A DNA stretch of 53,337 nucleotides from a virus (Duplodnaviria > Caudoviricetes). Of the stretch, positions 18,698-27,202 are shown in pieces. The stretch spans positions 1-53,337 of IMG/VR virus record IMGVR_UViG_3300032892_000071, one strand, 5' to 3'. The notes beneath the pieces were generated by a model. It had not been told where the DNA came from, did no database searches, and was given only the letters and a program-made list of their open reading frames with translations. The translations under genes and the position numbers were made by a program. Each line of letters starts with the position of its first letter. Position 1 is the stretch's first letter.

Positions 18698-21301
18698 GTG
18701 GCCGCGACATTGACCGCCGAGCAGGAACTCACGTACGCCTCGTTTCCCATCGAAAAGGTTGAGCACACCGCCGACGGCGACCTGCTGGTCTTCGGCAAAG
18801 CCACCGACGGCACCGTCGACTCGGACGAGCAGATCGTCGACCCCGCCTGGTCACAAAAGGCCCTCGCCGACTGGCTGGAGACCGGCGGGAACGTCCGCGT
18901 CCAGCACCAGGCGCAGCGCGACCCGGCCGGGAAAGGCGTCGGAGTCGAGTTCACCCCTGACGGGCATTTCGTCAAGGCCCTCATCGTGGAACCGGTCGCG
19001 AAACGCCTCGTCGAGAAAGGCGTCCTCCGCGCCTACAGCGTGGGCATCTCCCGCCCGGTGATCGAGCGGGACGTCACCGGCAAGGCCAGAGGCGGCCTCA
19101 TCAAGGGCGGAGTCCTGTCCGAGCTGTCCCTGGTGGACAGGCCCGCGAACGGGAACTGCAGCTTCCAGCTGGTCAAGTCCGCCGATGACGGCACCGCCGA
19201 GTTCACCGGCAAGGTGTACGGCGCGGACGGCTTCCTCGCTAAGGCCGCCGCGGATGAGCGGATCACGTCGACGGTGTCGTTCTCCCCGGCGGACATGGCG
19301 AAGCTGCTGACGTTGCGCGCGGAGCTGGAGAAGACCAGCAGCAACGGCAAGCCAGGCGACGGCGACGATGACGGCGATGACGGCGAGCCGGACAGCGATG
19401 ACAGCGACGGCGGAGCCGGCGGCAAGGACGACACCGCCGGTGATGAAAGCGACGTCGAGGCCGACGTCGATGACGCCGACGACGACAGCAAAACCGCCGA
19501 ACCAGACACTGTGAAAGGCGACCTGTCCGCCAAGGACCGCGACGCCCTCCCCGCCTCAAGCTTCGCCTACATCGACTCCCAAGGCGGGAAGCACCTCCCC
19601 GTCCACGACGAAGGGCACGTCCGTTCCGCGCTCGGCCGGTTCAACCAGACCCAGTTCGAAGGCGGCAAAGCGAAACGGAAAGCCGCGAAGAAAATCCTGT
19701 CCCGGGCCAGGTCGATGGGCATCGACGTGTCCGGTGACTCGGCGGTCGCGCAGGCGGCGAAGAAGACCGCCAAACCCGCCGCAGCGAAGACAGCGGGGGA
19801 GAAGTGCGGCACCTGCAACGGCACCGGGAAAATCATGGACGGGCACCGTAAATGCCCCGACTGCGGCGCCGACGGCACCATCGAGCCCGGCGACGAAGGC
19901 GCGAAGGCCGCGGAAGCCGACGTGGCTAAGGCCGGGTCGAAAGCGTGCACGGGGTGCGGGAAGAACTACCACTCCGACTCCCCGGCGAAGTTCTGCGAAA
20001 GCTGCGGGAAGAAACTCCCCGCCGCCGAGAAAGCCGCCAAACCGACCGTCGATGCCGGCGCGATAGGTGAGCACACCGCTCCGGTGCCTGCGCACCGCGA
20101 ACCCGACGGCGACGAGCAGACCGGCCAGGAGCAGTTCGAGAAAGACGCCGGTATCCCCACCGTCTCAGACGCGCCCCTTGAAGTGAAAGCCGCCCGCCGC
20201 CGCGCCCAGATCGGCGCCGGCACCGGCGAGGCGGTCCTGCATGATCTGCTGTGCCCCGCCTACTCCGCGAAGGTCCTCGGCGACACCTACCCGTGGCTCG
20301 GGGATGTCCGCGACGCCGTCGACATCGGCTACTGGCGGCAGAAGGCTGTCGACTCCGCCGCCGGCGCCCCCCTCGAGGAGGCCAGGGCGGCGGCGGACAT
20401 GTGGCGGCACGCCGAAACGTTGAAAGAGTCCGGCCCCGCCGACCTCGCCGACCTCCACGCCGAGATGCACAAGGCGTTCACCGACGCCAACCCCGGCCCT
20501 GGGCATCCGCTGACGCCCGGCGACATGCAAGCCGGCCGGTACAACCGGCCGCTCATCACCGCCGGCCATGAACGCCCGTCCACCGGCTACACCGTAGGCA
20601 AGCCGGACGTCACGATCCCGTCGGGGACACCGGACGCGTCGCAGTACACCCGCGGGCCCGTCACCGCCGGCCACGAACGGCCCGCCCCCTCCAGCGAACC
20701 CGGCTCCAACAGCAAGGTCCCGCCGCCCGCACCGGCCGGGCAGGTCGGGCGGACATTCTACACCAACGCGTCCCGCGACTCCGCCCGCTCCGCGATGGCC
20801 TCCATGCACGACCACATCGCGCAAACGTTCCCCGACCTGTGCCCCATGTCATCCAAGACCGCCCAGCCGCCGGTGATCGAGGCGGAGCCCGACGTCACCA
20901 AGAACGCTGAGCCAGCCAAGCCCAAGAAAATCAAGAAGGTTAAGGCTTCCGCCGTCACCAAAGCGGCGGTAGAAGGCGCCATCACCGGCCCAGACCTGAC
21001 CAAGCAGATCGGCGATCTGCAAGCAGAGCTCGCCAAATCGCGGCGCGACTACGACGAACTCCGCACCCAGGTCGAAGAGATGGCAGCGGCACCGGACCCG
21101 CGGTACGCCCCCTTCAAAGGCGTCATGTCCGGCTACCCGCCAGCCCGGCAGGCGGAGCCTGCCAGCGCAGTACAAAAAGCAGCCAACGCAGCGCAATCAA
21201 CACTGCTCGACGACCTCAACAAAACATGGCGCTACGACCCGGATCCGGCAGCCCGCGAAAACGCCTACGCGGCGATCCGCAAAATCCTGGGCCTCCCATA
21301 G
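18698..21301 (+). CDS. prohead (capsid maturation) protease fused to scaffold-like region with zinc-finger motifs
   Basis: HK97-type protease motifs (NVRVQH, GVLRAYSVG, ELSLVDRPAN); acidic linker; CxxCxGxG/CxxC pairs; C-terminal coiled coil; directly upstream of the capsid gene. Confidence 0.8.
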   Translation: MAATLTAEQELTYASFPIEKVEHTADGDLLVFGKATDGTVDSDEQIVDPAWSQKALADWLETGGNVRVQHQAQRDPAGKGVGVEFTPDGHFVKALIVEPVAKRLVEKGVLRAYSVGISRPVIERDVTGKARGGLIKGGVLSELSLVDRPANGNCSFQLVKSADDGTAEFTGKVYGADGFLAKAAADERITSTVSFSPADMAKLLTLRAELEKTSSNGKPGDGDDDGDDGEPDSDDSDGGAGGKDDTAGDESDVEADVDDADDDSKTAEPDTVKGDLSAKDRDALPASSFAYIDSQGGKHLPVHDEGHVRSALGRFNQTQFEGGKAKRKAAKKILSRARSMGIDVSGDSAVAQAAKKTAKPAAAKTAGEKCGTCNGTGKIMDGHRKCPDCGADGTIEPGDEGAKAAEADVAKAGSKACTGCGKNYHSDSPAKFCESCGKKLPAAEKAAKPTVDAGAIGEHTAPVPAHREPDGDEQTGQEQFEKDAGIPTVSDAPLEVKAARRRAQIGAGTGEAVLHDLLCPAYSAKVLGDTYPWLGDVRDAVDIGYWRQKAVDSAAGAPLEEARAAADMWRHAETLKESGPADLADLHAEMHKAFTDANPGPGHPLTPGDMQAGRYNRPLITAGHERPSTGYTVGKPDVTIPSGTPDASQYTRGPVTAGHERPAPSSEPGSNSKVPPPAPAGQVGRTFYTNASRDSARSAMASMHDHIAQTFPDLCPMSSKTAQPPVIEAEPDVTKNAEPAKPKKIKKVKASAVTKAAVEGAITGPDLTKQIGDLQAELAKSRRDYDELRTQVEEMAAAPDPRYAPFKGVMSGYPPARQAEPASAVQKAANAAQSTLLDDLNKTWRYDPDPAARENAYAAIRKILGLP

Positions 21302-21342
21302 CGCCACCCAGCAACCCCCGCGAGGGGTTCGATAGGAGGCGT

Positions 21343-24300
21343 GTGGCAACCACCACCGCACCCCCGGCCACCGACATCGCGTCCGCCGCAGGCGGCGTGT
21401 TCGAGCAGGCCCCAGCAGAAACCGCCGGAGCACGCGGCCCCGGCGACGTCATCAAAGCCCGCATGCCCAACATGGTCAAAGGCGCCGGCTACATCGGCCC
21501 CGGCGGCAACACCCCCGTCACCGACCAAGCCGAAATCGCCACCCGCACCCACTCCGCCACCATGGCCCTGCGCACCGAAACGTGGCGCGGGTACAACGCC
21601 AAACACGACGTCGTCAATAAGGGCTTCGACCAGGGGTTCCTGAACCAGTTCGGCCGGCTGAAAGCCGCGCTGACGATGCCGTCGGTGCAGGAGCAGGTCG
21701 CCCAGCTTGTGGGGGGGCTCCCCGGCGGCGCGGACGCGGTGAAGTCGTTCACCGCGGGGAACCTCGGGATCGGAACCGTCAACTAGGCGGCCTCACCCGG
21801 CGACGGGTGAGTGAATAACCACGAGAATTGCTGGGACACCCGTACCACCTGGTCACGCCACAGCGTGGCGCGAAAGCGCGAGCGCGACGGCTTGAGAAGC
21901 GGGCCAGAAGGGGCAATCAGCAGCCGAGGGCCTAAAGGCGCATGCCCAAGGTCAAGGTTCAGAGACTCTGTACGTGGGGTCTGGTAAAGTTAAATGGTAT
22001 GACCCGGAAAACGTTGCTCAGTGACGCCGACAAGCGGGAGATCGCAGGGCAGTACGCCAATGGGGCAGGCATCGTGCAGCTTGCCCGCGCGTACTCTTGC
22101 CGGACTAGCCAGATCAACTCGGCCATTGAGGCGAGCGGTACAGCACGCAAGATGCTGACTGCTAGCACGCCCATCGAGTGTCGTCTCCACGACGCGCTCA
22201 AGGCCGCAGGGATCGGCTTCACCACTCAGAAACGCCTAGTCGGCCGGTATGTGGTGGACATCAGCATCCATCAGGCGCCGGTTGTCATTGAGGCAGACGG
22301 AGCCCGGCACCACGCCGGTACCAAAGCCCAGGAACGGGACACGCTACGAGACGCGGCACATGAAGCCGCCGGATACCGCATGTTCCGCTTCAGCGGCAGC
22401 GAGATCAACGCCGACGCGGTGAAGTGCATCCAGAAACTGATAGACGCTTGCGGGCTGGTTCCCGACAAGGAACCCGTTTACGACATCCGCACGAAGTTCA
22501 GCGGCGCCGACCATCCTCGCCATGTCGGCATGTATGAGCTGACCTGCGGCTACTGCGGCGAAACGTTCCTCAACCGGCGGTCGAAGAGGATGTACTGCTC
22601 CCACGAGCACTACATTCTCGGCGTTCAGAAGGGGAAGCCGAAGAGCGCGGAGGTTCGTGCGGCGCTGGCTGAGTCCAACAGGCGCCGCGTATGGACCGAT
22701 GAGGCTCGTGCGAAAGTAAGCGCGTCTCGCGTGGGAAAGCCCACCACAAAGGGGCGTCCCAAGAGTGCCGAGCACCGCGCGAAGATCAGTGCAGCGCTGA
22801 CGGGCCAACGTCAGAGTGATGAGACCCGTGCCAAGAAAAGCGCATCTCATCGCGGCAAGACGATGGATGAGCCAACCCGCGCGAAGATCAGCGCAGCGCT
22901 GACAGGCCGCAAGCGTTCAAACCAGACCAAGATAGAGTCCGAGCCTGCGTGAGAACGCAGGAGCTACCCAGAAATGAGGTAGCCCGCGGTCATCCCTGAT
23001 CGCGAGTAACAACACTGCTCCGGTCTCGTCCCGTTCGATCTCCTTGCACCATCCCGCCTTAGTTAGATAGGGCCGCCGCGCCGTGAGGCGCGGATGAAAA
23101 CTCCGAGAATTGCTGGAAAGCCCGTGCCACCTGCCTGTGCCACAACGTGAGGCGAAAGCCTGAGCGTGACGGCCCGAGAAACCGGCAGAAGGGGTAATCA
23201 GCAGCCGAGCCCGCCTGGCCCCGCGCCGACGGGAAGGTTCACAGACCATGCACGGAGCACCCCTGGTGGGGTGAAGATATGGCCGGGCCTCACGTCGAGA
23301 GCGTGAGAGGCAGACAGCAATGATCTGCCCCACTGTCAAAACGGACAGTTGGTAACAAGCAGCGCATCTACCCCGTATATACAGTATTTCGTAACAAGCT
23401 GCCTAGGCCGCAAGGCCAGGGCACCATGCGCCAAGAACGCGTCATCACCGGCATCTCCGGATCACAAACCGGCGGCCAGGGCGTCGTCGACATCTCCATC
23501 CCAGAACTCGTCAACGCGACCGGCGGCGGGCTGTCGTCGTCGGCGAACTGGCCCAACAACCTGCCAGGCACCGGCGCGCAAACCGAAGTTAATCTCGCTG
23601 TCCCGTACCGTTTCTTCGGCCTTACGGAATCACTGTCGTGGCTGGCGCAGTTCGCCGGCCAAGGCTTCGAAGACATTTCCGCCCTAAACTAACCTGGGGC
23701 CCAGCGTGGTGACGCGCTGGTGAATAACCCTGCTGTATCGGTGAAAGCCCTTCGCCCCGAGGTGATATTCTCGGAACCATGGGTAACGCCGAGGCAACCC
23801 GGCCCGCAGCCGGAGAGTCCGTAGAGGCCATACGCAGGGGATCTGACGAGCTGGAACACCCTGATGCGGACTGCGGCGCTCGCCTCCCAGCGAGTAGCAA
23901 AGTGATTAACACGCCGCATGAGGCACTGTTCCATCAAGCACTACTCCGCGCCCGCCTTAGCTTTGAGACACAGACACATCCTGCTGGCGACAGGTGGGAA
24001 GCGGACATTGAGCTACGCCAAACGCCCATCATCATCGAGGTCACAAACAGCCCCGGACAGACGCGCAACGCTGACAGATACCGGCGCAAGACGGAAGCCT
24101 TCCAGGCTGCCGGGTACCGGGTCTACTGGTTCAGCAACCATATGGCGCGGACCAATGCCGATGCTTGCGTGCAACGGGTGATGAGAGAGAACGGGCTCAC
24201 GCCAGAGGCGGCACCGGCCGTCCTGATCCGGCCTAACCGGATCGGTCATGTGAGGGAACTTAACCCGAACTGGGGCGGCGGCCCGCAGGCGACCGCATGT

Positions 24301-26390
24301 GAGCAGTGCGGCGAGCTTGTCATCGCGGGTAAGCGGAACGGTGGCAAGCGTGCACGGTTCTGTAGTTCGAAGTGCTACGGGAAGTGGATGCACGAGCATC
24401 CTGAGACGGTCAACAATAAGCGCACCATGCCTGATATGCCCGATCTAGCTGACCGGTACGACTCGGGGATGTCTGCGCAGCAGGTTGCCGCCTCCTACGG
24501 CGTGAGCCGCTCCTACGTCATGCATGAGATGCGCAGGCGCGGCATCGCTCTCCGTCCTTCTGGCGGGTACCGTCCGCGGGGCGGCTTCTACCAGAGCGGT
24601 GATCTTCCCGGCTCGTGAAACGTCAGATCATGACATGGTCCGACCCGCATTCGATGACAAAGGTGCGGAGCTAGGCGGAACAGAAACGGCCTAGCCCGTT
24701 GTCCGGCCCGAAACTGGACAACGAGTAACAAAAGTGGGCAAATCTCATATTGCTACAGGAAATGATGCTGGGTTGAGATCATCTTTGCCCAGCCTAAACC
24801 GCGAGAATTGCTGGGACACCCGTGTCACCTGCTCGCACCACAGCGTGGGGCGAAAGCCCGAGCGCGACGGTCCGAGAAGCGAGCAGCAGGGGTAATCAGC
24901 AGCCGAGCCCGCCTGGACCGCATTGCGGCACCGACGGGATGGTTCAGAGACCATGTACGCGGCACCTCACCGAGGTGAAGATATGGCCCGGCCTCACGTG
25001 AGAGCGTGAGAGGCGCGCAGAAATGACGCGCCCGCTCGCCTGCCCGATGGGCGAGAGGTAACAGCGCGGAAGAGTACATGCTGCTCGCTGGGACGTCGCA
25101 GACGCTGCGGCCACCGACTTTGGTGTCGGCGAACACCCGGATACCAGGATCGAACGAGACCGCTGTCAACTCGTCGAATTACGTGTCGATCGGGGTGACC
25201 GCCACCAACTACTACGGTGAGACGGTCTGCTCGACGGTGCTTGACCCGGCGGTCACCAACAACACGTACGTGATCGACCTGACGGTGACGTTGCCGCCTG
25301 GCGCGCTGCAGTGGAACGTGTATGCGCTTACGCAGGCGGGCACTAACACGGTCGCGTCGACGCTGACGAAGGTGGCGTCGGGTATCGGCGGGTCGAAGTA
25401 CACGCTGCAGGGCACGATCCCCACTGTGCAGGTCTCGGGTGGGGCGCCGCCGTCGTCGGACACCTCTACGGGTGCCTCAACCCGGATGGAAGGGATCATC
25501 CCCACTCTGACCGGCCAGTCGGCGAACGCCGGGGTGTACCCCTCCACCTGGCAGGGCGGGTACATTAACCAGTCCGTCGGTACCCACCTCAGCTACAACA
25601 CGATCTACACGGCGCTGGACGCGTTGTGGGAGTCGGCGACCGGTTCCACCAGCCCGGGTGCGTTCCGTGCGGACCCGGCGGAGCTGGTCGGCGACGGCGG
25701 CGACATCATGCGCCTGTCGAATGATGTGATCTCCCAGGGGGCGGCGACGAACTACCGGCTGTTCCTCGACCAGCCCGACGTCGCCGGCGTCCGAGTCGGC
25801 GCTGCGGTGTCGGAATTCCAGAACCCGATCACCCGGTCCATCCTCAAACTGGTGGTCCATCCCTGGTTCACGCAGGGCACCGCGATCCTCATGTCGTACC
25901 AGCTGCCGCAGACGTGGACCAACGTCGCCAACGCGTGGGAAATGACCTGCGTACAAGACTACGCGAGCATTGCTTGGCCGGTTATCGACGCTTCGTTCAG
26001 GTACTCCATCAACAGCGTTCAGTTCTCGCTGAACTGAATAGGTGGCGCGGCAGGGTGACCTGCCGTGGAAAACTGCACTGTTCGGGGAACCCCTCCGCTA
26101 GCCGGGGAATCCCGAGCTTCGGCGATGCCTGCTGGAGTGTAGAGACTGTATGTGCGGGCTCTGTCATGGACGGCCGCCTGGGGCATCACAGGCGTACGGC
26201 CGCAGAGCATGAGACAGTCCGGTCTGCACCGATGGGAAAGGTGCAGAGGCTGGCAGAAATGACCAGCCCGCCCGCCATCCGGCGGGAGGTAACAGATCGC
26301 TTTCTCTATGGTGCCCTGGTCGCAAGCGCGCCTTTCTACTCGGGGATCTTGCAGGGGCTTCAAGTAAGTGACACTACACCCTACAGTTGA
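21343..26390 (+). CDS. major capsid protein, spliced: join(21343-21779,23018-23059,23365-23685,24737-24773,25069-26009,26300-26390), 622 aa
   Basis: exon sum 437+42+321+37+941+91=1869 nt=623 codons; junctions read GIGT-V-SGLVPFDLLAPSR-L-IYPVYTVFRNKLPR...EDISA-L-ANLILLQEMMLG-EEYML...FRYS-I-FLYGALV; position after the protease. Confidence 0.88.
21780..23017 (+). ncRNA. group I intron 1 (1238 nt) in capsid gene, endonuclease ORF in P8 loop
   Basis: P AATTGCTGG 21826, Q AATCAGCAG 21915, R GTTCAGAGACT 21957, S AAGATAGAGTCC 22929; P1 CCGU|C/GGCGG; P3 CCACG/CGTGG; P8 GGTCTGGT/ACCAGACC; terminal G 23017. Confidence 0.92.
21999..22952 (+). CDS. intron-encoded homing endonuclease: Vsr/DUF559-like nuclease + zinc finger + NUMOD3 repeats
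   Basis: YVVDI...VIEADGARHH...RD...GYRMFRF; CGYC..YCS; repeated SAEHRAKISAALTG; 3' end overlaps the S element. Confidence 0.8.
   Translation: MTRKTLLSDADKREIAGQYANGAGIVQLARAYSCRTSQINSAIEASGTARKMLTASTPIECRLHDALKAAGIGFTTQKRLVGRYVVDISIHQAPVVIEADGARHHAGTKAQERDTLRDAAHEAAGYRMFRFSGSEINADAVKCIQKLIDACGLVPDKEPVYDIRTKFSGADHPRHVGMYELTCGYCGETFLNRRSKRMYCSHEHYILGVQKGKPKSAEVRAALAESNRRRVWTDEARAKVSASRVGKPTTKGRPKSAEHRAKISAALTGQRQSDETRAKKSASHRGKTMDEPTRAKISAALTGRKRSNQTKIESEPA
23060..23364 (+). ncRNA. group I intron 2 (305 nt, no ORF)
   Basis: P 23108, Q 23196, R GTTCACAGACCA 23237, S AAGATATGGCCG 23274; P1 GCCU|UA/UAGGGC; P3 CTCCG/CGGAG; P10 UAGAU/AUCUA; terminal G 23364. Confidence 0.9.
23686..24736 (+). ncRNA. 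group I intron 3 (1051 nt) with endonuclease ORF
   Basis: P1 GCCCU|A/UGGGGC; P3 CCCTGC/GCAGGG; R GTAGAGGCCA 23821; P8 GATCTGACG/CGTCAGATC around the ORF body; P7 3' strand TGGTCC 24636; terminal G 24736. Confidence 0.9.
23779..24618 (+). CDS. intron-encoded homing endonuclease: Vsr/DUF559-like nuclease + zinc finger + C-terminal HTH
   Basis: TPHEALF...WEADI...IIIEV...GYRVYWF; NPNW; CEQC..FCSSKC; SAQQVAASYGVS HTH; alternative start GTG 23902. Confidence 0.75.
   Translation: MGNAEATRPAAGESVEAIRRGSDELEHPDADCGARLPASSKVINTPHEALFHQALLRARLSFETQTHPAGDRWEADIELRQTPIIIEVTNSPGQTRNADRYRRKTEAFQAAGYRVYWFSNHMARTNADACVQRVMRENGLTPEAAPAVLIRPNRIGHVRELNPNWGGGPQATACEQCGELVIAGKRNGGKRARFCSSKCYGKWMHEHPETVNNKRTMPDMPDLADRYDSGMSAQQVAASYGVSRSYVMHEMRRRGIALRPSGGYRPRGGFYQSGDLPGS
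24774..25068 (+). ncRNA. group I intron 4 (295 nt, no ORF)
   Basis: 7-bp P1 GCUGGGU|/GCCCAGC; P 24806, Q 24894, R GTTCAGAGACCA 24942, S AAGATATGGCCC 24978; P3 CCGCG/CGCGG; P10 UCUUU/GAAGA; terminal G 25068. Confidence 0.92.
26010..26299 (+). ncRNA. group I intron 5 (290 nt, no ORF)
   Basis: P1 CCAU|C/GGUGG with a hairpin in the loop; P3 CTGCAC/GTGCGG; Q AATCCCGAG 26108; P7 GAGACTG/CAGTCC; terminal G 26299. Confidence 0.9.
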
Positions 26391-26395
26391 CCGTT

Positions 26396-27202
26396 TTATC
26401 CCGTAATGTCCAGTTCGATTTGGCTGGATTGCGGGAGCCTCTTGCGGGCCAGTCCGGGCACGTCGCGGTGCAGCCACGCATCGAGTGCCCGGACTGGGCT
26501 GCCGCTCGCCACGATCGACCATGCGGCGTTGTGCCGCGTGTCCTGGTACGGGCCGCCGACCTTGACGCCCGTATGTGCCTTGATGCGGCCCTGCATCACC
26601 TGAAGGAACGCCAGGGTGCCGGACACGACCGCCCAGCGGTACGGCGGTTCCTGTCGCAGGCTGCCGTCGCCGTCGAAGTAGCCGCAGAGATAGCTGCCTT
26701 CCAGCTCGGGTGGCACGTCCTCAGGCCAGCGGGTGATGAGGCTTTTGCGGTGTATGACGCCGTGGCTGGCGAGGTCCGCGACCAGGCCGGGGGCGCTGAC
26801 CATGAACCTGGCCATCGGGGTTGTTCGGGTCCGGTAATGCGAGATCCGGGCACCGGGCGCGATGTGGTCACGTGCTAGTTCCACCAGGCAGATGTCTTTC
26901 TCATGCAGCTCCAGCTTGAGCTGCCCGGCCTTCGACATTGAGCCATCTGCCGCGAGCAGCCCCAGCAGGTACGCCTTAACCGGCGTATCGATGACCTGGA
27001 AGTAGCCGGGAATGAGCGAGTTGAAGCCCGCCCGGTGCAGGGATGTCAATCCCTCGATCTTGGCTCGCTGATATATGGCGCTGTAGGACCGGCCGAGCTT
27101 CTCTGCGATCAGCCTGGCCGGCAACTTCGTGTAGTTCTCGTGCAGGTAGGCGAGTTCCTCCGTCGTCCATGGAGCCGCCCAGTAGCCCTCTTTAGTTCTC
27201 AC
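26396..27202 (-). CDS. free-standing double-motif LAGLIDADG homing endonuclease with N-terminal Myb/HTH-like segment
   Basis: AYLLGLLAADGS and SYLCGYFDGDGS motifs; WTTEELAYL...IAEKLGRS; converges on the capsid stop. Confidence 0.85.
   Translation of the reverse strand: MRTKEGYWAAPWTTEELAYLHENYTKLPARLIAEKLGRSYSAIYQRAKIEGLTSLHRAGFNSLIPGYFQVIDTPVKAYLLGLLAADGSMSKAGQLKLELHEKDICLVELARDHIAPGARISHYRTRTTPMARFMVSAPGLVADLASHGVIHRKSLITRWPEDVPPELEGSYLCGYFDGDGSLRQEPPYRWAVVSGTLAFLQVMQGRIKAHTGVKVGGPYQDTRHNAAWSIVASGSPVRALDAWLHRDVPGLARKRLPQSSQIELDITG

What the first reader, a model, noticed from the sequence alone, without database searches (positions are those of the whole stretch)
21780..26299. Two intron lineages sharing one 3' architecture; introns 1, 2 and 4 look like a locally spread family
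Seen: introns 1/2/4 share GAGAATTGCTGG, an extended P5 region with a GCGAAAGC hairpin and AATCAGCAGCCGAG, and 2 and 4 also match through P6-P9. Introns 3/5 have a compact different core (CTGT(A)TCGGxGAA...CCGAG...GTAGAG). All five end with a CAG(A/C)AA-containing stem, a hairpin and GTAACA-N5-7-G. Each has an in-frame stop soon after the 5' splice site (TAG 21784, TAG 23064, TAA 23690, TGA 24774, TGA 26035). Inference: ectopic spread of related ribozymes into one gene, a conserved GUAAC 3'-splice element, and stops that keep ribosomes off the ribozyme core.
Basis: partly seen in the sequence, partly recalled or inferred. Interest (0 to 1): 0.7.

Follow-up and report, generated by a model that had tools for sequence, protein, structure and literature searches.

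The report
Five group I introns, one capsid gene
A probable capsid gene of a high-GC soil phage is cut into six pieces by five self-splicing group I introns of a widespread phage and bacterial intron family, so the shared 3' end is a family trait and not a local invention.

Summary
Gene 21343-26390 (+) is split by five insertions: 21780-23017, 23060-23364, 23686-24736, 24774-25068 and 26010-26299. Each follows a U and ends in G. Removing them gives one 622-codon frame like uninterrupted 600-625 aa homologues. Introns 1, 2 and 4 share one ribozyme core (type A) and introns 3 and 5 another (type B). Covariation supports a group I fold for both.

The window's type A introns are not each other's closest kin (AU p 0.0004 and 0.0075). 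Intron 4 groups with same-site introns of other phages. Cores in unrelated capsid genes are as close to introns 2 and 4 (85-86%) as those two are to each other (83%).

The 3' domain also occurs in the published Cluster J mycobacteriophage introns, in 80 of 80 sampled IMG/VR loci and in 74 of 80 bacterial-genome loci. GUAACA is also seen in the Twort introns.

Early in-frame stops are real, but they are a textbook feature.

What is notable is the hotspot: at least 23 insertion sites in this one gene family.

The parts
21343..21779 (+). Exon 1 of the ~622-aa capsid-like gene (GTG start)
   Evidence: tblastn of P0001, P0002 and P0013; the spliced frame is open
21780..23017 (+). Intron 1, type A, 1238 nt. 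An endonuclease ORF (in-frame ATG 21999, stop 22952) sits in the P8 loop, and its 3' end overlaps P8', J8/7, P7' and P9.
   Evidence: core nhmmer hit; RF00028 partial 17.7 bits; ORF Pfam DUF559 50.6 bits and NUMOD3 43.5 bits
23018..23059 (+). Exon 2 (42 nt)
23060..23364 (+). Intron 2, type A, 305 nt, no ORF
   Evidence: RF00028 49.0 bits, E 1.6e-10
23365..23685 (+). Exon 3
23686..24736 (+). Intron 3, type B (sub-lineage B1), 1051 nt. An endonuclease-like ORF ends at 24618 in the P8 loop; its start is uncertain.
   Evidence: the ORF is homologous to the intron 1 ORF (30% identity, E 3e-17)
24737..24773 (+). Exon 4 (37 nt)
24774..25068 (+). Intron 4, type A, 295 nt, no P2, 7-bp P1
   Evidence: RF00028 48.2 bits, E 2.8e-10; groups with the site-277 introns of L049 and L044
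25069..26009 (+). Exon 5
26010..26299 (+). Intron 5, type B (sub-lineage B2), 290 nt
   Evidence: 90% identical to the same-site intron of L049
26300..26390 (+). Exon 6 with stop codon
22929..23017 (+). 3' domain of intron 1 (J8/7, P7', P9, P9.1, P9.2, GUAACA, P9.0', terminal G)
   Evidence: Model R1 79.6 bits
23274..23364 (+). 3' domain of intron 2 (P9.1 loop is GCAA)
   Evidence: R1 67.0 bits
24627..24736 (+). 3' domain of intron 3
   Evidence: R1 53.2 bits
24978..25068 (+). 3' domain of intron 4
   Evidence: R1 77.1 bits
26205..26299 (+). 3' domain of intron 5
   Evidence: R1 81.1 bits

Best explanation
The window is a high-GC tailed-phage contig. Gene 21343-26390 lies between a protease/scaffold-like gene and the tail genes and is probably the major capsid gene. 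It carries five self-splicing group I introns.

Each intron is removed from the mRNA by the usual two transesterifications:
- The last exon base U pairs with a G of the internal guide (P1).
- The last intron base G docks in P7, positioned by a 2-bp P9.0 between J7/9 and the two bases before that G.

Three introns (1, 2, 4) have a core with an extended P5abc-like arm (type A). Two (3, 5) have a compact P4-P6 (type B, in two sub-lineages).

All five share one 3' domain: P9, then P9.1 (6 bp, a bulged A, two conserved pairs, a GNRA loop), then variable P9.2, then the invariant single-stranded GUAACA, then P9.0 and the terminal G. This domain is inherited family architecture. It is shared with the Cluster J mycobacteriophage introns and with hundreds of phage and bacterial introns. 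GUAACA most likely acts as a structured linker that places the terminal G; this step is inferred.

Introns 1 and 3 carry related Vsr-like (DUF559) endonuclease genes in the P8 loop that presumably drive homing (inferred).

The five introns arrived independently, or by transfer among phages, at separate sites of a gene that is an intron hotspot in this phage clade. They did not arise by recent duplication inside this genome.

An early in-frame stop in each intron ends translation before the ribozyme core. This is a known feature.
For: Borders and frame:
- All five introns follow a U and end in G. The spliced CDS is 1869 nt with one terminal stop and is colinear with uninterrupted 600-625 aa homologues.

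Group I identity:
- RF00028 gives E 1.6e-10 and 2.8e-10 for introns 2 and 4.
- The consensus fold of 10 type A introns recovers P3-P9.1, with 43 of 66 pairs compensated.
- The consensus fold of 11 type B introns including BAKA has 56 of 73 pairs compensated.

3' domain:
- 99.5% of 429 cells are paired, with 134 compensatory cells against 38 in shuffles (0 of 500 shuffles reach this); slid controls give 19-38%.
- P9.0 has both pairs formed in 25 of 33 introns, against a shuffle mean of 9.2 and a maximum of 17 in 5000 shuffles.

Family context:
- Model R1 finds 42 hits in the window plus 46 related loci, LittleE and BAKA.
- The BAKA tail-gene intron ends with the same module. Its splicing was shown experimentally by Pope et al. 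2013 (PMC3706429, section 19 read).
- R1 hits all 80 IMG/VR loci sampled by pattern (112 hits, GC 0.28-0.65) and 74 of 80 bacterial-genome loci.
- Downstream exons of those IMG/VR hits belong to many unrelated genes.

Not local spread:
- Trees and AU tests.

Hotspot:
- 35 introns with exact borders occupy 22 sites, plus site 617.1.
- In five whole contigs of 78-147 kb, all 14 R1 hits lie in this gene.
Against: - No RNA data: no RNA run holds the sequence, so splicing of these five introns is inferred and not shown.
- RF00028 scores (49.0 and 48.2 bits) fall just under Rfam's gathering score of 50. Introns 3 and 5 give no Rfam hit at E<=10.
- The capsid identity of the host gene rests on gene order and a language-model lead. 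Pfam and PHROGs give no named family and the AlphaFold model was poor (pLDDT 46.5).
- The trees rest on 158-319 columns of structured RNA whose paired sites are not independent, and most inner branches are weakly supported.
- The wide surveys used a pattern that contains GTAACA, so they show spread of the module, not its frequency among all group I introns.
Confidence: 0.85

Rival explanations
1. One reading: introns 1, 2 and 4 are a family that multiplied recently within this genome by ectopic insertion (for example reverse splicing or illegitimate homing) into new sites of the same gene.
For: The three share 72-83% core identity and exact 12- and 14-mers. All sit in one gene. Type A introns occupy at least 12 different sites in this gene family, so ectopic movement has happened at some time.
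Against: The AU test rejects introns 1+2+4 as a clade (p 0.0004) and introns 2+4 (p 0.0075). Intron 4 is nearest to the same-site intron of L049 (85-87%). Intron 1 is nearest to introns of L132, L044 and L048 (82-85%). Intron 2 is nearest to introns of L097, L092 and L025 (84-85%), against 83% to intron 4.
Confidence: 0.08
2. The shared 3' end is not only common descent. The terminal module (P9.1, P9.2, tail) has been exchanged between type A and type B introns by recombination or gene conversion among introns living in the same gene.
For: On the P9.1-to-end columns the A/B label changes 11 times and an A clade is rejected (AU p 0.0067). On the J8/7-P9 columns it changes 4 times and an A clade is not rejected (p 0.30). 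Both tail subtypes (G-GUAACAG...CG and A-GUAACAA...UG) occur in both core types. The three introns of L049, of different core types, carry an identical P9.1 hairpin. L049_B_s267 has a type A-like P9.
Against: The segment is short. P9.2 is poorly aligned and paired columns are not independent, so the test is rough. Identical P9.1 hairpins within one genome were seen only in L049, out of 9 multi-intron loci inspected.
Confidence: 0.35
3. GUAACA is itself the 3' splice-site recognition element, rather than a linker.
For: UAACA is invariant in 33 of 33 aligned 3' domains and the preceding G is present in 32 of 33. It always lies 4-8 nt before the terminal G. It is left unpaired in both consensus folds. 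It is also seen at the aligned end of the Twort matches.
Against: An invariant element cannot tell one intron's 3' end from another's in a gene with five of them. The covarying P9.0 does vary between introns. One family member, L044/L045 site 277, has no P9.1, P9.2 or GUAACA, though whether it functions is uncertain. No partner sequence was found.
Confidence: 0.25
4. The gene is a decayed pseudogene, or the insertions are inteins or non-splicing mobile DNA.
For: None beyond the fragmentation itself.
Against: Every insertion has an in-frame stop, so none can be an intein. Excision at U...G restores a complete conserved frame. The insertions fold as group I ribozymes with covariation. Related introns are known to splice.
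Confidence: 0.02

Closest known systems
Cluster J mycobacteriophage introns (LittleE capsid gene gp13; BAKA and Optimus tail gene). Pope et al. 2013, PMC3706429.
   Same: High-GC actinophage structural genes. Same 3' domain: blastn 88% over P7'-P9-P9.1, and R1 gives 69.9 bits for BAKA and 52.5 bits for LittleE. BAKA ends with the CAGAAAUGA hairpin, a small hairpin and AGUAACA-N4-G. BAKA aligns with type B throughout. U before and G at the end of the intron. Splicing was shown by RT-PCR and by protein sequencing (section 19 read).
   Different: One intron per gene there, five here. Different host genes. The LittleE endonuclease gene lies on the opposite strand inside P9.2, whereas here the ORFs are on the sense strand in P8. 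The paper calls the intron type 'unclear' and describes no structure.
Staphylococcus phage Twort orf142, with three group I introns in one gene (Landthaler and Shub 1999, recalled, not read)
   Same: Several related group I introns in one phage gene separated by short exons. The Twort matches to R1 end in GUAACA + 5 nt + G.
   Different: R1 scores only 19-21 bits and there is no P9.1 hairpin. Twort introns are filed as IA2 with P7.1/P7.2 (recalled), which the window's introns lack. The record's annotation gives no splice coordinates, so I could not confirm that the aligned G is the splice site.
Intron-rich phage genomes (crAss-like and Jug phages; PMC12880540, passages read)
   Same: Many group I introns and homing endonucleases interrupt essential phage genes. 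Some genes are split into several fragments.
   Different: There the introns are spread over many genes (18.5 per genome on average). Here all detected introns sit in one gene.
T4 td, nrdB and nrdD introns, and the general rules for phage group I introns (Edgell, Chalamcharla and Belfort 2011, PMC3073962)
   Same: An in-frame stop right after the 5' splice site. The endonuclease ORF sits in a peripheral loop and its end runs into the core ('core creep'). One T4 match has a P9 nearly identical to some type A P9 stems.
   Different: T4 scores 20.6 bits with R1 and has no GUAACA at the aligned end.

Membership tests
Group I intron | 5' exon ends in U that can form a G.U pair with an internal guide sequence (P1) | tested here: met
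   All five introns follow a U. By inspection, the guide segments GCGG, GGGC, GGGGC, GCCCAGC and GUGG pair with the last 4-7 exon bases.
Group I intron | Last intron nucleotide is G | tested here: met
   5 of 5 in the window. 34 of 35 in the exact-border set; the exception is L044 site 277.
Group I intron | Conserved core helices P3-P9 supported by covariation | tested here: met
   Type A: 43 of 66 predicted pairs compensated. Type B: 56 of 73. P9 and P9.1: 99.5% of cells paired. P7 is a pseudoknot that I assigned by eye only.
Group I intron (Rfam RF00028) | Score at or above the gathering threshold of 50 bits | tested here: not met
   Intron 2 scores 49.0, intron 4 scores 48.2 and intron 1 scores 17.7 (partial). 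Introns 3 and 5 give no hit at E<=10. The E-values of 1e-10 still argue for homology.
Group I intron | Guanosine-dependent self-splicing | not testable with these tools
   No RNA holder was listed. Splicing is shown only for the related Cluster J introns.
Cluster J mycobacteriophage-type introns | Shared 3' domain sequence and structure | tested here: met
Subgroup IA2 (Twort/T4 type) | P7.1/P7.2 helices between P3' and P8 (definition recalled) | tested here: not met
   In both consensus folds P8 follows P3' directly. I therefore do not file the introns as IA2. The subgroup is left unassigned because no subgroup models were available.
Homing endonuclease (Vsr-like PD-(D/E)XK, DUF559) | Nuclease domain above the Pfam cut-off, inside an intron | tested here: met
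   Intron 1 ORF: PF04480 50.6 bits (cut-off 20.6) and NUMOD3 43.5 bits (cut-off 20.4). The intron 3 ORF scores only 17.6 bits but is homologous to the intron 1 ORF (E 3e-17). Cleavage activity was not tested.
Major capsid protein (host gene) | Match to a capsid family or an HK97-like fold | tested here: inconclusive
   No Pfam match. PHROG 13692 is 'unknown function'. AlphaFold pLDDT 46.5. ESM Atlas neighbours are named major capsid protein at 0.97. The position between a protease-like gene and the tail genes fits a capsid gene.

The most novel reading that the evidence does not exclude
The P9.1(GNRA, bulged A)-P9.2-GUAACA-P9.0 terminal domain may be an undescribed signature of a very large class of phage and bacterial group I introns that preferentially colonise phage structural genes, above all major capsid genes. 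In this actinophage clade the capsid gene is a standing battleground: at least 23 insertion sites, up to 6 introns per gene and none elsewhere in 78-147 kb genomes. Ribozyme lineages there may swap terminal modules by recombination. GUAACA would then be a new essential tertiary element for docking the terminal G.
Probability: 0.25. Interest if true: 0.6.

Novelty: new member of a known kind. Interest (0 to 1): 0.5.

Why it matters
- Annotation: gene callers split this essential gene into fragments. Recognising the introns restores a 622-aa protein, and the same holds for 17 of 47 related contigs.
- Intron biology: one gene family with at least 23 group I intron sites, two ribozyme types (both found at one identical site) and related endonucleases is a rich natural data set. 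It can address how introns choose and change sites and why capsid genes are favoured.
- RNA structure: an invariant single-stranded hexamer next to the 3' splice site, conserved from 28% to 65% GC, is a clear target for mutagenesis and for mapping onto solved ribozyme structures.
- Practical use: compact (~290 nt) high-GC self-splicing introns that work in tandem could serve as parts for RNA engineering.

Tried and rejected
- Rfam at gathering threshold gave no hit.
- Megablast of the whole region and blastn of intron 4 against isolated phages gave nothing. The protein scan of genome contigs gave nothing. tblastn against phages gave only a 27.5% Thermoanaerobacterium phage hit.
- The AlphaFold model of the host protein was too poor (pLDDT 46.5) for a fold search. 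PDB sequence searches of the host protein and of the intron 1 ORF gave nothing useful.
- My first collection pattern was one base out of register. It returned 15 stretches, of which 4 loci were true by R1. I corrected it.
- No RNA holder was listed.
- The DNA contigs of four wetland runs are fragmentary. They break inside the shared intron sequence and gave no clean joint at my intron borders, so they are not used as evidence.
- I tested whether P9.0 serves as an 'address' that stops exon skipping between neighbouring introns. The upstream J7/9 is compatible with the downstream tail in 5 of 18 adjacent pairs, against 239 of 924 (26%) between-locus pairs. There is no depletion.
- I looked by eye for a partner of GUAACA in loops and junctions and found none. 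Both consensus folds leave it unpaired.
- The open-access search for 'GUAACA' with 'group I intron' returned 4 papers, none on this element by title or abstract. Closed journals, such as the one holding the Twort structure paper, could not be searched, and supplements were not seen.
- The Twort record's annotation gives no splice coordinates.
Full report
WHAT IS THERE

The window is a 53-kb IMG/VR virus record with high GC. It carries tail genes: a tape measure at 36.0-39.5 kb, and minor tail and tail fibre genes. Between an 867-aa gene with a weak head-protease match and the tail genes lies a gene that looks fragmented.

Uninterrupted homologues of 600-625 aa are common (512 proteins at E<=0.001, 120 listed). 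tblastn of three of them maps six colinear pieces in the window. I then required a U before each insertion and a G as its last base. This gives introns at 21780-23017, 23060-23364, 23686-24736, 24774-25068 and 26010-26299. The spliced CDS is 1869 nt with a single terminal stop.

THE OBSERVATION

The five in-frame stops are at the stated coordinates, 4, 4, 4, 0 and 25 nt after the 5' splice sites. There are two small corrections. The spacer after GTAACA is 4-6 nt, not 5-7. Intron 5 starts at 26010.

ARE THEY GROUP I INTRONS?

- Introns 2 and 4 match RF00028 over its full length (49.0 and 48.2 bits, E about 1e-10), just under the curated 50 bits. Intron 1 matches in part. Introns 3 and 5 do not match.
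- Independent support comes from relatives. 47 IMG/VR loci encode the same protein. 17 of them carry insertions and 30 do not.
- A consensus fold of 10 ORF-less type A introns recovers P3, P4, P5, a P5abc-like arm with a GAAA loop, P6, P8, P9 and P9.1. 43 of 66 pairs are kept through double changes.
- Eleven type B introns, including the BAKA intron, give P2, P3, P4, P5, P6, P8, P9, P9.1 and P9.2, with 56 of 73 pairs compensated.
- I assigned P7 by eye.
- P8 follows P3' directly, so the P7.1/P7.2 helices of subgroup IA (definition recalled) are absent. I leave the subgroup open.

THE 3' DOMAIN

Aligning 33 3' domains shows the following order:
- J8/7 and P7';
- a G followed by two bases;
- P9, with a GNRA loop in most type A introns and a 9-nt GAUGGNAAA loop in most type B introns;
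- an A;
- P9.1, then a C;
- a variable hairpin P9.2;
- a purine, then GUAACA;
- 1-4 bases, then two bases, then the terminal G.

A 6-bp stem is followed by two further pairs, C-G and A-U. The A-U pair is replaced by G-C in 3 sequences, which is a compensatory change. These pairs close a GAAA tetraloop (GCAA in intron 2, GUAA elsewhere). An unpaired A sits on the 3' side.

P9 and P9.1 are strongly supported. 99.5% of 429 cells are paired. There are 134 compensatory cells against 38 in shuffles (0 of 500 shuffles reach this), and slid registers give 19-38%.

The two bases after the J7/9 G covary with the two bases before the terminal G. Both pairs form in 25 of 33 introns, with at least eight pair combinations. 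The shuffle mean is 9.2 and the maximum is 17 in 5000 shuffles. This is the classical P9.0. It is the variable, intron-specific element that, with the terminal G, specifies the 3' splice site.

UAACA is invariant in 33 of 33 and unpaired in both consensus folds. Its role is not shown by anything here. I infer that it is a structured linker between P9.2 and P9.0.

HOW GENERAL IS THE DOMAIN?

- blastn of intron 5 hits 30 Cluster J mycobacteriophages at 88% over P7'-P9-P9.1.
- The BAKA tail-gene intron ends with the same hairpins and AGUAACA-N4-G.
- In LittleE an endonuclease gene on the other strand sits inside P9.2.
- Pope et al. 2013 showed splicing of both by RT-PCR, and for LittleE also by N-terminal protein sequencing. 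They called the type "unclear" and described no structure (section 19 read).
- A covariance model of the domain (R1) finds 42 hits in the window, 46 related loci, LittleE and BAKA. All are on the coding strand and none is in the 30 uninterrupted loci.
All 80 loci returned carry R1 hits (112 hits, GC 0.28-0.65, contigs up to 394 kb).
- The same scan of one genome per prokaryote species stopped at 120 stretches. 74 of 80 loci are confirmed by R1. The record titles name Actinomycetota, Bacillota, Acidobacteriota, Chloroflexota, Planctomycetota, Patescibacteria, Gemmatimonadota, Cyanobacteria, Proteobacteria and one archaeal MAG contig.
- T4 and Twort give only about 20-bit matches and SPO1 gives none. 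The Twort matches nevertheless end in GUAACA + 5 nt + G. I could not check the Twort splice site from the annotation.

These surveys used a pattern that contains GTAACA. They therefore prove wide spread, not frequency.

WHICH GENES CARRY SUCH INTRONS?

Of the 112 IMG/VR hits, 84 had a downstream open frame of at least 45 aa; the other 28 were dropped. PHROGs named 49 of the 84:
- 25 major head proteins, from several unrelated PHROG families;
- 9 tape measure proteins;
- 4 ribonucleotide reductases;
- 4 RtcB ligases;
- 3 major tail proteins;
- 2 portal proteins;
- 1 terminase;
- 1 member of the window's own family.
The remaining 35 had no match. The sample is truncated and not random, but capsid genes clearly recur.

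LOCAL SPREAD?

I fixed exact borders for 35 introns: 5 in the window and 30 in 14 loci. They occupy 22 distinct codon positions. A further site, two codons before the stop, occurs in L026 and L044.

Site sharing:
- Intron 1's site is shared with L020 and L026.
- Intron 4's site is shared with L013, L044 and L049.
- Intron 5's site is shared with L044, L049 and L050.
- The sites of introns 2 and 3 are unique so far.

In the type A tree:
- Intron 4 groups with the site-277 introns of L049 and L044 (93/99).
- Intron 2 groups with an intron at site 587 of L026 (97/93).
- Intron 1 lies in the other half of the tree.
- The AU test rejects introns 1+2+4 as one clade (p 0.0004) and introns 2+4 (p 0.0075).
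- It does not reject a clade of all site-277 introns (p 0.48).

Adding type A cores from other loci changes nothing. Intron 2 is 85% identical to an intron in a PHROG-1357 capsid gene (L097), against 83% to intron 4. Intron 4 is 88%, 87% and 86% identical to introns of L121, L049 and L119/L097. For that tree I dropped L135 (same contig as L049), L095 (same score as L092) and three weak hits.

Type B splits (98/95) into a mostly ORF-bearing group that holds intron 3 and a small-intron group that holds intron 5. Intron 5 is 90% identical to the same-site intron of L049.

The family has clearly moved between sites and genes. The window's copies, however, are not a recent local burst.

A HOTSPOT

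- R1 finds 5 introns in the window, 6 in L026 and 5 in L044. L044 also has one further intron without the module.
- In five whole contigs of 78-147 kb (84-100% complete), all 14 hits lie in this one gene.
- In the 53-kb window the five introns are the only hits.
- One site (163, phase 2) holds a type A intron in L048 and a type B intron in L008.

MODULE EXCHANGE

On the P9.1-to-end columns the A/B label changes 11 times and an A clade is rejected (p 0.0067). On the J8/7-P9 columns it changes 4 times and an A clade is not rejected. The three L049 introns share an identical P9.1. This fits recombination between co-resident introns, but the segment is short and the test is rough.

STOPS

The first in-frame stop lies within 12 nt of the 5' splice site in 22 of 35 introns, against 14 of 70 for the two other frames (Fisher p 2e-5). 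It lies within 30 nt in 30 of 35 against 31 of 70 (p 5e-5). Edgell et al. 2011 state that most group I introns have such a stop to keep ribosomes out of the structured RNA (passage read). The inference is sound but not new.

ENDONUCLEASES

The intron 1 ORF (in-frame ATG at 21999) has a Vsr-like DUF559 nuclease domain and NUMOD3 repeats. It lies in the P8 loop. Its last codons run through P8', J8/7, P7' and into P9 (read), which is the "core creep" described in the same review. The intron 3 ORF is its homologue (30% identity over 161 aa, E 3e-17) with a helix-turn-helix tail. Related endonucleases therefore ride in both ribozyme types.

LIMITS

- No RNA evidence exists for this phage.
- The capsid identity of the host gene is inferred.
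- No subgroup models or RNA 3-D tools were available.
- Supplements of the papers were closed.
- My search for prior description of GUAACA covers open-access text only.

VERDICT

These are new members of a known kind: group I introns of the actinophage Cluster J type. The case is notable for the number of introns per gene, for the density of insertion sites in one gene family, and for exposing a widely conserved 3' domain that, as far as my searches reach, has not been described.

Noticed in passing
window 26396-27202 (-): A 268-aa LAGLIDADG-type endonuclease ORF lies on the opposite strand and starts 6 nt after the capsid-like gene's stop. Pfam LAGLIDADG_3 scores 24.0 bits and PHROG 4645 'endonuclease' gives E 1e-30. 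It looks like a free-standing homing endonuclease beside the intron hotspot.
   Followed up: partly
L026:9914-10187 and L044:9634-9907 (approximate): A type B intron splits the gene only two codons before its stop. The exon ends ...CCGT and the next exon is AC TCN TGA. This adds a 23rd site, 617 phase 1.
   Followed up: partly
L044:7744-7991 (identical in L045): A 248-nt type A intron at site 277 stops right after P9. It has no P9.1, P9.2 or GUAACA. The best protein-guided 3' border does not end in G, and the nearest G-ending border would delete an invariant Glu. It is either a natural minimal variant or a decaying copy.
   Followed up: partly
L049:7630, 7942, 9170: The three introns of the closest relative (types B, A, B) carry an identical 21-nt P9.1 hairpin. 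This suggests gene conversion between introns of one gene.
   Followed up: no
L008:6736 and L048:6373: The same codon position (site 163, phase 2) is occupied by a type B intron in one phage and a type A intron in another.
   Followed up: no
L075:5359-6496 and L077:7942-11002: Two unrelated IMG/VR contigs each hold four R1 matches. In L075 (hit GC 0.41-0.46) they are packed within 1.1 kb, so multi-intron genes with very short exons also occur outside the high-GC clade.
   Followed up: no
L206-L285 (genome contigs): The same 3' domain occurs in genomes and MAGs of many bacterial phyla and on one Methanosarcinales MAG contig (L229, 75.1 bits). I did not check whether these sit in prophages or in cellular genes.
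   Followed up: no
window 21300-26400 in runs X1-X4: Wetland metagenome contigs break inside the shared intron sequences. Their loose ends show co-occurring relatives with other intron/site combinations, for example an intron 5-like 3' end followed by the exon that starts at site 258.
   Followed up: partly
window 18698-21301 (+): The upstream 867-aa ORF combines a weak N-terminal head-protease match (PHROG 9427, E 5e-4) with a long acidic, low-complexity middle and CxxC pairs. It may be a fused protease/scaffold.
   Followed up: no
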